From Perna viridis (taxonomy: Eukaryota): a stretch of 64,000 nt of DNA. Made by a program: the position numbers. The DNA lies in contig CM074511.1 of the NCBI GenBank assembly GCA_037379345.1, forward strand, positions 66,718,862 through 66,782,861, read 5' to 3'. Below are positions 15,001-21,000 of this stretch, piece by piece (the stretch's first letter is position 1; each line of letters begins with the position of its first letter).

Positions 15001-18000
15001 GTTGCTCATAAAATGGTGCGTCTAGGTTTGGTGAAAGATGAAAAGAAAACTATGACAAGGTGAACAAATCGGTTTTCAGGGAGCAAACGGATAAACCGTA
15101 ACAAACCACGAGCTCAAGATCACAACCATAACTTCAATTTCGTAGCAGTAATACCCTGTTCAGAGAGTCTAGCTCGGTCCGCGTAGTTACGGCAAGCTCT
15201 GGCACGGGGCGTTAAACCAATGATGCTTCTTTGGAAGTGTTCATTTAGAGCAAAAATGTCGAAAATGCGGTTTTTACTAATTCTGTAGCTAATTTTGGTC
15301 CTCAAACTGATTTTTCACAAATTTGCATTTTTTGAGAACAATAGACGTTTTTCTACAGATTCTAATGCTTTAAGGCATTTGAACAACAGTTTTTTTTCAA
15401 ATAGGCCTTACTTGTGATCATAATCCTGGGGAAAATGTTTCAAATGTATTAATCTTTGTCTTTTATCGTTGTGATTAATTGTATTACACAACATGTTTTG
15501 ATGCTTGTATTACACATTTGCGTCTCAATAGCTTGAATTATTGTTTTACTTTCCACACTCTTTCTCTCAATCACGATGCAGATTTTTGCATGCTTGCGTA
15601 TCCAAGAACTTAAAAGATTTACTTATGTAATTATGTATAGTATTGTTTCAATATTTTACAGCAGTTGTCAAGTTGCTTTTTGTTAAATCCTTGTCATTGT
15701 GAACCTAGACATATTCGACAAATCGTTTCCTACTCAATAAGTGTATAAGCTTACAAAGAAAATTAGGAAAGAAAATCTTTATGTTAACGAGACAGGCTTG
15801 TTAGACAAAATTCTATCGTGTCAATATGTCGAGTATACACGCAAACCGTGCATTCAACTCCCAAGTTGTGTTTGTTCTTCTCAAGTATCTATAATTCATA
15901 CCGGTATTAGCTTATATTTCTTTCAAATAAAAAAGAAATCTTATTGAAGTGCTGTCTCGACACGACACCGTACTACAAACATTGCATTACGTGGCTATTA
16001 TAAGCATCAACATGGATGTCTCAAGATTACTTCAATGTCAACAGTTTTCCCAATACTAATGACAACGACGTAGATATATACATGATTACTGATAACCATA
16101 GATTGTGGGTTGAAACATTTCAATTGAAATGTATAAGTTGCCAGGTGTAAGTATTTTGTATTGATTTTGTCAATACCGTTTTGAGTTTAAAGTGTTTAAA
16201 CAATAAACAAAATATTCTCTTTTAATGATAAACAAATTTCATATTTTTGTCCATTTGTAGCGGTTTATGGTCTGATAGACAATGAGCATGTGACGATAAA
16301 GTCTTCTCAGTTTTCAGTACTTCATGATATAATATTTATTTATTGCAATCCAACAGATAGATATAAATACAAAATAACTCATATTAATACAGTGGTTCAA
16401 GGAGTAACCTGTCATCAGCAGCATCTGAATCAAATACAAAGTATGATCTGCATCGAAAAAAGAATTGTACTCAAGAACTATTAAAAATTAAAACTGTCGA
16501 AACAGGAAGTCAAATCCATCACCAAGAGGTTTTACCATGTGCATTACAATCAAGTGAAATGTACGAACATCATTGATAAGCCATTGAAAATGTATGGAGC
16601 GCCGCAGCTGCCGTATGCGTACTTACTTCTATATATGTACATACTTGTCCATATATACACATACTTTGTCTATTTATGCAAATATTTGTTTATATGCACA
16701 TATTTGTTTATATGCACATACTTTTTCTCTTTATGCATATACTTTTTCTCTTTATGCACATTCTCCATGCAGGTCCGGGTGTTGAAGAATAGGCCTGCAG
16801 CAGCGCTAAGTTCGTCGTAAAAGGCGACTAAATAGTGCTCAGAACCCTAGCCGGGGGCTAGGGCGCTCTGCCCACAGAGCAACTGGAATGTGTGCCCCAG
16901 GAGGTGGAATGGGGTACCCCTGGTGTGTTACATGCTGGGGTTGACAGTGGCAATCAAAATTTGTCGACCCCATTGTCCTTGTGTCCCATCCCTTTTTCAT
17001 TTCATCATCATTTCATGTTCATTGTCTGAATATACCTGAAATATTGCTGCTCGGACGTTAATCCCCAACAGACAAACAAACAAACTCTTTATGCACATAC
17101 TTTGTCTTTTTATGCAAATATTGTCTATATGCACATACCTTTCTCTATATGCACATGCTTGTTCTATATATGCACATACTTTTTTCTATATATGCACATA
17201 CTTGTCTATATATGCACATACTTTTTTCTATATATGCACATACTTGTCTATATATGCACATACGTTTTTCTATATATGCACATACTTGTCTATATATGCA
17301 CATACTTGTCTATATGTGCACATACCTTTCCCTATATGCACATGCTTGTTCTATATATGCACATACTTTTTTCTATATATGCACATGATTTTTCTCTATA
17401 GTTTTTCTATATATGTCACGTAGTTCTCCATGTGTATACTTTTATCTGATTTTCCTGGTAGTTCTTCGTGGGTATACTCATATTCAATATGAGAATGGCC
17501 ATGCATATAATTTACATTTTCCGGATGGAAGGAATGCTGGGTAAAAGTAAGCATTAAATAAAAGGCAGAGCCTCTGATGCTGACTGTGTTAAAGAAAATT
17601 GATTGCAAGAAGTGTACGAAAATTTGGAACTTGAAGCCATAACTCCTGATATCATTAGTCTGCTCTCAAAACAAAATTTGCAAATGTTAGGTATCCCAAA
17701 TGCATGTAATATGATGAAATTGCAGGCAGAGAGTGTCAAATATGGAAAATCCAAACTACAGGAAATAAGAGGATATTCCGGAGCACCGAAATTTGATATT
17801 GATAAATTAACGGTGGACAATTTGTTAGATTGTGCTTCCAAATATCTGAAATAGAAAAACTTTTATTAGTATCAGAGCGCACAACATATCGTCGAATGGC
17901 CCACTTTGGATTGTCAAAGCCACAGTTTTTTTCGAAATAGACGGTGATGATCTGGAAAGAGTTGTTTCGGAAACCATTAAAGATTTCCCTGTGTGTGGCG

Positions 18001-21000
18001 AGCAAATGCTTCGACAACTGTTAAGAACGAAGTGTTTAAAAATACTCAAGGAAATCATTCATGAAATAGATTTGTCTGGAGTTCACGTAAGAAATGCAGG
18101 TCCTCTCCATCGGAGTACTTATATAACATAATGGGCCCTAACCATTTGTGGCACATAGACACCGACCATAAACAAATTCGATGGAGTTTTGTAATAACTG
18201 GTGGCACTGACGGATCTAGTAGGGTGATTCAGTTTCTTTCATGTAATGACAACAACTCTTCTAAAACTGTTATGAAAAGCATCCTTACGGGTGTTGGTAA
18301 CTATGGCATCTATTGAAAATTAGATCTAACAAGGGCCGGGGAAATATATCTGTAGCGGATTTTGTGCTGAAGAAACGAGGTGAAAGCGGCATTATCATAG
18401 GTCCCAGTACCTACAATCAACGGATCGAACGACTCTGGAGGGACATTTTTGAATGCGTATTTTGCTACTACTTTTATAATCTTTTCTATTACATGGAGGA
18501 TCATTGCATTCTTGACCCCTTAAATGGTCAACATTCGGCACTTCACTACATGTTCAAGGATAAAGTTAACAGAAGGCTGAATGTGTACGTGGTATACGGA
18601 ATAAGGACTATAAAGGCTTCCTCTCTGAAAGTTTGGAGCCCAGGACAAATTTAGAACCCAGTCGGTATGCAAATGAATGAAGCGGAATTAACAGAAATAA
18701 GAGTTGAAGGGGACAATAACGATTGTGTTGCTAGAGATGGGAGAAACACCAATATTTCAACCCTTAAATCTCATAAGTGTAGGGAGATCCTAAGCAATGA
18801 ATTAAATAGAACAGGCGAGAACTTTGGTATTGATGACTACTGGAAGTCTTTGGTTATCATATCGGCAAATACTTAACATTAACATAATCATAAAAATAAT
18901 ATGCCATTTAAATACAAACATGATTATCAAAGAATACTGCCTTAGAATCAAACTATTTTGTATTGATTCAGTATTGTTCTTTTCAACAGTTAACGGGGTA
19001 GCTAAAATTGTTTTTATTATTAACCATCAACCACAAAATATTGAAAGTGAACCCTACTATACCAATATATATCTACTGACCAAGTATCATTTCCATAACA
19101 TGTCTAGTATCCGAGAAACGGGCGTTAGCCAGAGAACTTAATCAAGATAGGGATGGACGTAGGTATGTTGGGACGGACAAGGGTATAACGTTTAAAAAAA
19201 TTGTCATTTTATAAATTTTCCGAAGACCGGAAATGAGGGAATGTCGTGATACATGAATGAAATGACAAGTTGGTGTTGATGTTTAAGCAAAATTTATCGA
19301 ATATTTTTTACACCAAATCCTTAGTTGTCATTACATAAAAGAAACATAATCCCCTACTAAATCCGTCAATGCCATAATTTTTACAAACCTCCATCGAATT
19401 AGTTTATGGTTGGTGTCTATATGCCACAAATGGTAAGGACCCATTACGTTATAAGTTCTCCGATGGAGACGACATGCCTTTCTTACATGATTTCCAGACA
19501 AATCTATTTCATGAATGATGTCCCTGAGTCGCCATCGTTGTATTTTAAACCCTTCGTTCTTAATAGTTGTCGAAGCATTTGCTCGCCACACATAGGGAAA
19601 TCTTTAATGGTTTCCGAAACAACTCTTTCCAGATCATCATCGTCTATTTCGGAAAATTGTAGCTTTGACAATCCTAAGTGGGCCAATTCGACGATATGTG
19701 GTGCGCTCTGATACTAATAAAAGTTTTTCTATTTCAGATATTTGGAAGCACAATCTAACAAATTGTCGAATGTTAATTTATCAATATCAAATTTCGGTAC
19801 TCCGGAATATCCTCTTATTTTCTGTGGTTTTGGATTTTCCAAATTTAACACTCTCTGCTCGCAATTTTATCATGTTAGTTGCATTTAGGATACCTAACAT
19901 TTGCAAATTTTGTTTTGAGAGCAGACTAATGATATCAGGAGTTATGGCTTCAAGTTCCAAATTTTCCTACACATCTTGCAATCCCATTTTCTTTAACACA
20001 GTCAGCATCAGGGGCTCTCTGCCTTTTGTTTAAGGCTTACTTTTACCCACGATTCCTTCAATCCGGAAAGAGTAAAGTATATGCATGGCCATTCTAATAT
20101 TGAATATGAGCATACCCATGAAGAAAATCAGGTAAAAATATACACATGTGTATACTATGTGCATATATAGAAAAACTGTAGATAAAAAGTATGTGTATAT
20201 ATAGACAAGTTTGTGCATATATAGAAAAAAGTATGTGCATATATAGAAAAAAGTATGTGCATATAGAAAAAATGTATGTGCATATAGAGACATAAGGCAG
20301 CTGCGGCGTACCTCAACTTTTCACAATAGGTAGTAAATGAACTAGAATGGGGGGAAAGTAAAAAGAAATCACGTTTTCAATTAACAATTAGTATGTAAAC
20401 TATTTTCTACTATTCGACAAATATTTTACCCCAACAAACAAACAAACAAACAAATCAATGTTTTCCATGTTAAAAAAAAACATATATTTACTTGAGATAA
20501 TATTACACACATTGTATTTAAAAGATTTTAATGCAATCGGATACGCTTTACTCTTTTTGCACTTTTACTTTTTAAAAGTAGATAAAGGGCAAAACGTGGT
20601 TAAGTTTTAAAGCAACTTCAACGACGAAACGCTTCAACAGACCCATAAAATATTAAATGTAAAACTCATTAAGTCATATGATAGCAAATAACAAATATAT
20701 ACGTATATTGACATCATTTCTAAACAGCTAGTTAGGAGAAAAAGTGATATAATGTGTTAACATTTATTTATCATAGAAAACAAACCATCGTATTCTTTAA
20801 CATATGCCTCGTTGAAATCAATTCGTGGGTCATTAACGTGTCTTCATGTCGTTATTTCAGTTTTTATATTGAAGAAGTGTCATCGTTCTATTAACGTAGG
20901 TTGTATTATTTGTCGGGGCCTTTCATAACTTACTTGAAGGTGTGTTTACACTCACTGAAGAACATTCGGTGATCTCTGTAAGTATTTACCATTTTTAAAG

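What the first reader, a model, noticed from the sequence alone, without database searches (positions are those of the whole stretch)
16593..20310. A second, divergent IS3EU-like family shows the same full-copy plus inverted-5'-half geometry
Seen: 19322-20310 is an inverted copy of 16593-18252 (about 1 kb, reaching past the first catalytic Asp), with both 5' ends pointing outward. The left terminus TATGGAGC resembles family 2's YACGGAGC, although the two transposases are very divergent. Each arm keeps sequence lost from the other; for example KIQRWRLRD survives only in the right arm. The same architecture twice within 22 kb suggests a recurrent mechanism such as local hopping or template-switch repair. 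Caveat: no TSD is visible and the right terminus lacks about 5 nt.
Basis: partly seen in the sequence, partly recalled or inferred. Interest (0 to 1): 0.65.

Follow-up and report, generated by a model that had tools for sequence, protein, structure and literature searches.

The report
Decayed transposon with two left ends
This is a dead DNA transposon of the IS3EU/GingerRoot kind, in what looks like a bivalve genome, whose right end is a back-to-front copy of its own left kilobase; this quirk is known from other transposon families and is of modest interest.

Summary
19324-20310 is an inverted copy of 16593-18253: 87% identity over 988 columns, and 92% over 816 ungapped columns outside the tandem arrays. 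The left arm is longer because it carries a nested SINE-like insert and more 20-22 bp repeats.

Both arms encode an integrase-core (Pfam rva_4) transposase. The left copy spans almost the whole ~446-aa protein. The right arm holds residues 3-234. Both are broken.

- The arms diverged neutrally and evenly (dN/dS 0.98), so they come from one source.
- The terminal motif and all 25 subterminal repeat units lie only at the two outer ends. The "full copy" therefore has no 3' end of its own.
- Homology stops at the terminus.
- No 6-bp target-site duplication is present.

The second family, 22 kb away, has the same geometry and is flanked by a perfect 6-bp duplication. Its arms show an old outer part and a young inner part.

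Best reading: one element with an extended terminal inverted repeat, as known in Galileo. This is not two chance fragments. Whether this locus arrived as a unit or was built in place stays open. No eukaryotic genome collection was available for a survey.

The parts
16593..20310 (.). Whole structure: decayed IS3EU/GingerRoot-type element bounded by two inverted 5'-type ends
16593..18253 (+). Left arm of the inverted repeat. It holds the terminus, the subterminal arrays, a nested insert, the 5' leader and the first half of the transposase gene.
16593..16623 (+). Left terminus, TATGGAGCGCCGCAGCTGCC..., starting with TA
   Evidence: The TA..TA rule for IS3EU comes from passages of PMC10045372.
16624..16761 (+). 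Subterminal array of ~21-bp direct repeats, outer block (about 6 units)
16765..17085 (+). Nested SINE-like insert ending in (CAAA)n. It is absent from the right arm. Other copies lie at 40554-41059 and 39575-39758.
17090..17400 (+). Subterminal array of 20-22-bp direct repeats, inner block (about 15 units)
17565..18870 (+). Transposase gene of the left copy, broken. It covers residues 2-445 of a 446-aa relative, with 332 of 429 aligned residues identical. It has 4-7 frameshifts (depending on the guide protein) and 1 stop. One of the three catalytic positions no longer holds an acidic residue.
18254..19323 (+). Unique interior between the arms. It holds the second half of the gene plus about 450 nt with no terminus-like motif and no repeat unit.
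19324..20310 (-). Right arm: inverted copy of the left end
19324..20017 (-). Transposase gene fragment of the right arm, broken. It covers residues 3-234 of 446, with 190 of 228 aligned residues identical. It has 6 frameshifts and 1 stop.
20156..20290 (-). Subterminal array of the right arm (about 7 units of 22 bp)
20296..20310 (-). Right terminus, TA followed by CGCCGCAGCTGCC, 5 nt shorter than the left one
30864..38649 (+). Comparator. This is the family-2 element with the same geometry, arms 30864-31353 and 38228-38649. It is flanked by CATTCG at 30858-30863 and 38650-38655. One run of N inside it was left as is.

Best explanation
16593-20310 is one decayed IS3EU/GingerRoot-type DNA transposon whose right end is an inverted duplicate of its own left ~1 kb.

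**Shown.**
- The duplicate takes in the terminus, the 20-22-bp subterminal repeats, the 5' leader and the first ~234 codons of the transposase. This is an extended terminal inverted repeat that has recruited internal sequence.
- Both arms descend from one source sequence and have since decayed neutrally.
- A SINE-like element later landed in the left arm.

**Inferred mechanism.** DNA synthesis or gene conversion started within the native inverted repeat (terminus plus repeat array). It then ran inward past the repeat's boundary and copied 5' sequence into the 3' end in reverse.

**Inferred, not shown here.** Such a unit still presents two ends that a transposase can recognise, so it can move as a whole. 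This rests on family 2's shared target-site duplication.
For: 1. All 25 matches to the subterminal unit lie in the two arms: 19 on + in 16632-17390, 6 on - in 20153-20286, and none in the interior or elsewhere. The terminal motif occurs only at 16600-16612 and 20296-20308. The left copy therefore has no other 3' end.
2. Arm divergence is neutral. dN/dS is 0.98 over 219 codons, and differences by codon position are 12/19/18.
3. Arm divergence is even. The 100-nt bins run 88-97% with no trend.
4. Arm homology stops at the transposon terminus, so the right arm is a real element end.
5. The other rva_4 locus in the window (2 of 2; 81 of 92 frames of at least 75 aa were scanned) has the same build. 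It also has a perfect 6-bp flanking duplication. The chance of that match is 4.4e-4, or 27 of 55,405 same-spacing pairs.
6. Family 2's arms step from 163 of 182 identical bases (outer part) to 239 of 240 (inner part), Fisher p 8e-7. The inner tract was copied later than the outer repeat.
7. The superfamily has 6-bp TSDs, TA..TA termini and 100-150-bp inverted repeats (passages of PMC10045372 and PMC6839031).
8. Recruitment of more than 500 bp of ORF into the inverted repeats is documented for Galileo (passages of PMC4168063).
Against: - There is no target-site duplication at this locus: 0 of 6 bases match.
- With arms 92% identical, I calculate that an intact pair should still match at 5 or more of 6 positions about 92% of the time. 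A terminal deletion of at least about 13 nt must therefore be assumed. That is larger than any of the 14 indels seen in the arms, which are 1-10 nt.
- The arms here show no step in identity of the kind family 2 shows.
- Only two loci support recurrence.
- No other copy of this family was available to show that the inner junction is shared.
Confidence: 0.55

Rival explanations
1. Two separate insertions of the same family landed tail to tail, for example by a local hop from the first copy. A single later deletion then removed the 3' end of the full copy, the DNA between them and the 3' half of the second copy.
For: - The outer flanks share no TSD. This model predicts that.
- The right terminus can then be read simply as TA plus a 5-nt deletion, a size within the 1-10 nt seen elsewhere in the arms.
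- Neutral divergence also fits two copies from one master at about the same time.
Against: - It needs three events placed just so. The deletion must take out both 3' ends with their arrays.
- It cannot explain family 2, where one TSD bounds the whole structure.
- No other copy of this family lies in the 64 kb, so two independent hits within about 1 kb need strong local preference.
Confidence: 0.25
2. The composite was built in place by aberrant (alternative) transposition coupled to replication. In maize, Ac composite insertions of this origin contain inverted duplications of fractured transposon pieces.
For: - Such events give inverted transposon duplications without a common TSD (abstract of bioRxiv 10.1101/2020.01.07.897926).
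- The arms end at an element terminus.
- No TSD is present.
Against: - Nothing at this locus shows the flanking duplications or rearrangements that accompany such events. Direct and inverted repeats in 14000-23000 show none beyond the arms.
- The mechanism is documented for hAT elements, not for this superfamily.
Confidence: 0.1
3. An ordinary inverted segmental duplication of host DNA that happened to include a transposon, or an assembly fold-back artefact.
For: Inverted duplications arise in genomes and in long-read assemblies (general knowledge, from no call).
Against: - Homology does not run into the flanks.
- The arms differ by 65 substitutions and 14 indels, and by a SINE-like insert in one arm only. 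An assembly artefact would not give these differences.
Confidence: 0.05

Closest known systems
[quoted passage not shown]
   Same: - The transposase is integrase-core (DDE) type with an N-terminal helix-turn-helix region and no zinc-finger hit.
- The terminus starts with TA.
- The ends are inverted repeats.
- Family 2 in the same window has a 6-bp TSD.
- The family properties come from passages of PMC10045372 and PMC6839031.
   Different: - Inverted repeats reported for GingerRoot are 100-150 bp. Here they are about 1 kb and include half the transposase gene.
- No TSD is present at this locus.
- No Repbase IS3EU protein could be fetched for a direct comparison.
Galileo (P superfamily, Drosophila) copies with extended inverted repeats
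   Same: The inverted repeats are lengthened both by expansion of tandem repeats and by recruitment of internal sequence. In one copy more than 500 bp of ORF is recruited (passages of PMC4168063).
   Different: - The transposase superfamily and the host are unrelated.
- The extended Galileo copies are flanked by identical TSDs, and this locus is not.
- In the nearly complete Galileo copy that the passages describe, the recruited piece is from the 3' end of the ORF. Here, in 2 of 2 loci, it is from the 5' end.
Mu killer of maize and Ac composite insertions
   Same: Both hold an inverted duplication of a transposon end together with the 5' part of its transposase gene (abstract of PMC3440606 as shown in the listing; abstract of 10.1101/2020.01.07.897926). 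A transcript reading through this locus would likewise hold sense and antisense copies. The duplex energy of two 300-nt stretches is -462.5 kcal/mol, against -86.5 +/- 9.2 for 20 shuffles.
   Different: - No transcription or small-RNA evidence exists here.
- The host is an animal, so the small-RNA pathways differ.
- The arms are now only 92% alike, and the family may be long dead.

Membership tests
IS3EU/GingerRoot | Integrase-type DDE transposase core | tested here: met
   PF24764 rva_4 matches three pieces: E 7e-21 and 4e-21 (left copy) and 2e-8 (right arm). Intact relatives match at E 2e-72. One catalytic position in the left copy is no longer acidic. Whether rva_4 equals Repbase's IS3EU set was not testable.
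IS3EU/GingerRoot | TA..TA termini | tested here: inconclusive
   The left end starts with TA. The right end reads TA followed by sequence that lacks 5 nt, so that TA may be original or chance.
IS3EU/GingerRoot | 6-bp target-site duplication | tested here: not met
   AAAATG against CCTCAA matches 0 of 6. No better boundary pair exists among the 6,800 tried. The feature is met by family 2 (CATTCG on both sides).
IS3EU/GingerRoot | Terminal inverted repeats | tested here: met
   They are far longer than the 100-150 bp reported.
Extended-inverted-repeat derivative (Galileo-like) | The repeat starts at the element termini and includes ORF sequence | tested here: met
Extended-inverted-repeat derivative (Galileo-like) | The whole unit is flanked by one TSD | tested here: not met
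   for this locus. Met for family 2.
Hairpin-RNA silencer locus (Mu killer-like) | Inverted duplication of a transposon end plus the 5' part of the transposase gene | tested here: met
Hairpin-RNA silencer locus (Mu killer-like) | Read-through transcript and derived small RNAs | not testable with these tools
   No expression or small-RNA data were available.
Two independent insertions | Each copy has its own TSD and its own two ends | tested here: inconclusive
   No inner ends exist. Two interior TA+hexamer candidates are at chance level (mean 0.8 expected; 555 of 1000 shuffles give at least one).

The most novel reading that the evidence does not exclude
In this bivalve lineage, IS3EU elements regularly copy their 5' end, promoter side and first codons included, into their 3' end. 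The resulting units both move as wholes and, when read through, make long hairpin RNA against their own transposase. This would be an animal counterpart of maize Mu killer and a built-in route to self-silencing.
Probability: 0.1. Interest if true: 0.6.

Novelty: new variant of a known kind. Interest (0 to 1): 0.3.

Why it matters
The structure of IS3EU elements is little studied. [quoted passage not shown]

Two of two loci in this window have inverted repeats that swallow the start of the transposase gene. One has an intact target-site duplication and a young inner tract. This would show that repeat extension by internal recruitment, known from Galileo, also occurs in an integrase-type superfamily in molluscs.

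It also matters for annotation. Such units are easily mis-parsed as a full copy plus a stray fragment, and convergent pairs would inflate counts of "nested" or "local-hop" insertions.

As a single old, dead copy without a TSD, this locus on its own is ordinary.

Tried and rejected
- **TSD search.** I tried 85 x 80 boundary pairs around both ends. The only exact hits lie inside the palindromic GCAGCTGC of the repeat itself. There were 52 hits (4 exact, 48 with one mismatch) against about 37 expected by chance.
- **Own 3' end for the left copy.** I searched the window for the terminal 16-, 11- and 13-mers with up to 3, 2 and 2 mismatches. Nothing turned up in the interior.
- **Interior end candidates.** Two TA + AAAATG-like sites lie in the interior (18891 and 19003). 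They are at chance level and were rejected.
- **Homology beyond the termini.** A shared TGAAAA next to both ends looked suggestive, but the flank scores are not significant. The 300-nt hit is out of register.
- **RNA genes.** Rfam (gathering scores) and ARAGORN found nothing in the window, so the SINE-like insert has no recognisable tRNA head.
- **Solved structures.** These gave only a weak match of the core to retroviral integrase catalytic domains (E 5e-5). It adds nothing beyond Pfam.
- **Pfam on the remaining frames.** It gave only weak, sub-threshold hits: Claudin-like at 41946-42254 and Peptidase_C58 at 60196-60501.
- **Frames dropped.** Eleven of the 92 frames were not scanned. They lie in the arrays or overlap the coding stretches of the two arms, on either strand. 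One of them had already been scanned.

**Not checked**
- No eukaryotic genome collection exists among the tools.
- Genome contigs (prokaryotes only) was not used.
- Supplements of the papers were closed. The GingerRoot tables of element sizes could bear on how long inverted repeats get.
- Repbase Reports are not in the paper library. "Not described for IS3EU" therefore rests only on two searches: 62 papers, 25 listed; I read passages of three of them; 8 papers; I read passages of one more.
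Full report
**Setting.** The window is AT-rich (GC 29-38% in 2-kb steps) and full of repeats. The closest named relatives of the protein encoded in the finding are from bivalves: Mytilus coruscus, M. trossulus and Pinctada imbricata, at 49-60% identity to a 116-aa piece. An unnamed record, P0001, is 68% identical. The window is therefore most likely from a bivalve mollusc. Nothing pointed to human sequence. 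Three runs of N were left untouched.

**The observation**
- blastn of 16000-21000 against the window gives one strong inverted pair, 17287-18253 with 20292-19324: 87.2% over 988 columns, 40 of them gaps.
- Further out, 16600-16761 pairs with 20308-20157 at about 72%, through arrays of 20-22-bp direct repeats.
- The arms run to 16593 and 20310. The left reads TATGGAGCGCCGCAGCTGCC. The right, on the minus strand, reads TACGCCGCAGCTGCC, which is 5 nt shorter.
- The left arm is 1,661 nt and the right 987 nt. The left holds about 21 repeat units against about 7. The left array is also split by a ~320-nt insert at 16765-17085 that ends in (CAAA)n and has two other copies in the window.
- Outside the arrays the arms are 92.0% identical over 816 ungapped columns, with 33 transitions, 32 transversions and 14 indels of 1-10 nt. 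Eight indels leave extra bases on the left and 6 on the right. The 100-nt bins run 88-97% with no trend.

**What is encoded**
- Pfam finds the integrase core domain rva_4 (PF24764) in two pieces of the left copy (E 7e-21 and 4e-21) and one piece of the right arm (E 2e-8).
- Intact relatives are 438-455 aa. They have helix-turn-helix hits at about residues 84-116 and the core at 191-373.
- I ran a frameshift-tolerant alignment that reports only counts and outer bounds.

| Copy | Outer bounds | Residues of P0001 covered | Identical residues | Frameshifts | Stops |
|---|---|---|---|---|---|
| Left copy | 17565-18870 | 2-445 of 446 | 332 of 429 | 7 (4-7 over three guide proteins) | 1 |
| Right arm | 20017-19324 | 3-234 | 190 of 228 | 6 | 1 |

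- In the left copy one of the three catalytic positions no longer holds the acidic residue that all 6 aligned relatives have.
- Both copies are dead.
- The right arm does reach past the first catalytic Asp, and the KIQRWRLRD stretch is readable only there.

**Where the ends are**
- All 25 matches to the 15-nt core of the repeat unit (up to 2 mismatches; 0.32 expected by chance) lie in the arms. Nineteen are on the + strand in 16632-17390 and 6 on the - strand in 20153-20286.
- The terminal motif CGCCGCAGCTGCC occurs only at 16600-16612 and 20296-20308. Longer and shorter versions of the terminus find nothing in the interior.
- The "full copy" therefore has no 3' end other than the right arm.
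- Homology does not continue into the flanks. 124 of 1000 shuffles (40 nt) and 525 of 1000 shuffles (100 nt) reach the observed local score. The only 300-nt signal is an out-of-register AT-rich alignment.
- The outer limit of each arm is a transposon terminus, which argues against a plain segmental duplication.

**History of the arms.** Codon-by-codon counts over 219 comparable codons give 10.5 synonymous and 38.5 non-synonymous differences, dN/dS 0.98. Differences by codon position are 12, 19 and 18. The arms therefore diverged without selection. They come from one source and decayed where they lie. They are not two long-separated active lineages.

**Target-site duplication**
- IS3EU families have TA..TA termini and usually 6-bp TSDs. 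GingerRoot, the same lineage, has 6-bp TSDs and 100-150-bp inverted repeats (passages of PMC10045372 and PMC6839031).
- Here the flanking hexamers are AAAATG and CCTCAA, matching at 0 of 6.
- A scan of 6,800 boundary pairs gave nothing above chance.
- With 92% identity per site, I calculate that an intact pair should match at 5 or more of 6 positions in about 92% of cases.
- So either a deletion of at least about 13 nt removed the right tip together with its TSD, or the two outer ends never shared a TSD.

**The second family**
- Only two loci in the window carry rva_4 (81 of 92 frames of at least 75 aa were scanned). The other is at 30864-38649.
- Its arms, 30864-31353 and 38649-38228, begin CACGGAGCC and TACGGAGCC.
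- The whole unit is flanked by CATTCG on both sides, at 30858-30863 and 38650-38655. The chance of this is 4.4e-4, and 27 of 55,405 pairs at the same spacing match.
- That structure is therefore one unit, not two independent insertions.
- Its arms are 163 of 182 identical in the outer 250 nt and 239 of 240 in the inner 240 nt (Fisher p 8e-7). The inner tract, which holds the first ~67 codons (my count from the bounds), was copied later than the outer repeat.
- It too has a 21-bp subterminal array: 4.2 units on the left and, where the arms align, a single unit on the right.
- The two transposases are far apart, at 34-39% identity over about 108 residues.

**Reading.** The most economical account is an IS3EU/GingerRoot element whose inverted repeat has been extended inward by copying 5' sequence into the 3' end. 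Galileo of Drosophila shows exactly this. Its inverted repeats are lengthened by tandem-repeat expansion and by recruitment of internal sequence, with more than 500 bp of ORF in one copy (passages of PMC4168063).
- For family 2 this reading is well supported.
- For the locus in question it fits the placement of the ends, the neutral and even divergence, and the sharp outer limits. The missing TSD counts against simple arrival as a unit.
- The main rival is two tail-to-tail insertions followed by one deletion. It predicts the missing TSD, but needs three well-placed events and cannot explain family 2.
- A composite built in place by alternative transposition, as for maize Ac (abstract of 10.1101/2020.01.07.897926), also remains possible.
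- An assembly artefact is unlikely, given 65 substitutions, 14 indels and an insert in one arm only.

**A bolder reading.** A transcript running through the locus would carry sense and antisense copies of the first half of the gene. Two 300-nt stretches give a duplex energy of -462.5 kcal/mol, against -86.5 +/- 9.2 for 20 shuffles. This is the build of maize Mu killer (abstract of PMC3440606 as shown in the search listing). No expression data were available, so it is only a lead.

**Limits**
The genome-wide survey, the search for other copies with the same inner junction and the empty-site comparison could not be done.
- Recurrence rests on 2 of 2 loci in 64 kb.
- Paper supplements and Repbase Reports could not be seen.

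**Verdict.** The interpretation needs revising, from "full copy plus a separate inverted half" to "one element with two 5'-type ends". The mechanism at this locus is undecided. This is a structural variant of a known transposon kind, of modest interest.

Noticed in passing
window 30858-38655: The family-2 element is flanked by a perfect 6-bp direct repeat, CATTCG. Its arms are 89.6% identical in the outer 250 nt and 99.6% in the inner 240 nt, so the inner tract was copied later. The interior (about 6.9 kb) holds an interrupted transposase gene, a run of N and a 160-bp tandem repeat at 34624-35061.
   Followed up: partly
window 16765-17085, 39575-39758, 40554-41059: A SINE-like repeat family ending in (CAAA)n. 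The copy at 40554-41059 has about 170 nt more in the middle. Rfam and ARAGORN find no tRNA-like head.
   Followed up: partly
window 20429-20454: A short CCCCAA(CAAA)n stretch lies about 120 nt outside the right arm. It resembles the tail of the SINE-like family and may be a truncated copy.
   Followed up: no
window 12063-12346, 14847-15204, 23227-23730, 27530-27914, 47879-48496: Five or more copies of another dispersed repeat at 70-86% identity, with no Pfam hit. Two of them lie 1.4-1.7 kb on either side of the finding, in direct orientation.
   Followed up: no
window 10359-10973 and 13500-14300: Two tandem arrays. One has a period of about 58 nt at 91-93% identity. The other has a period of about 42-43 nt at roughly 68-70%.
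   Followed up: no
window 54167-54405 and 55434-55845: A ~240-nt stretch that matches its own reverse complement at 75%. Nearby is a young tandem duplication (99% identity, offset about 73 nt).
   Followed up: no
window 41946-42254: An open frame with weak, sub-threshold matches to claudin/PMP22 families (E 1e-3 to 4e-3). It may be an exon of a host gene.
   Followed up: no
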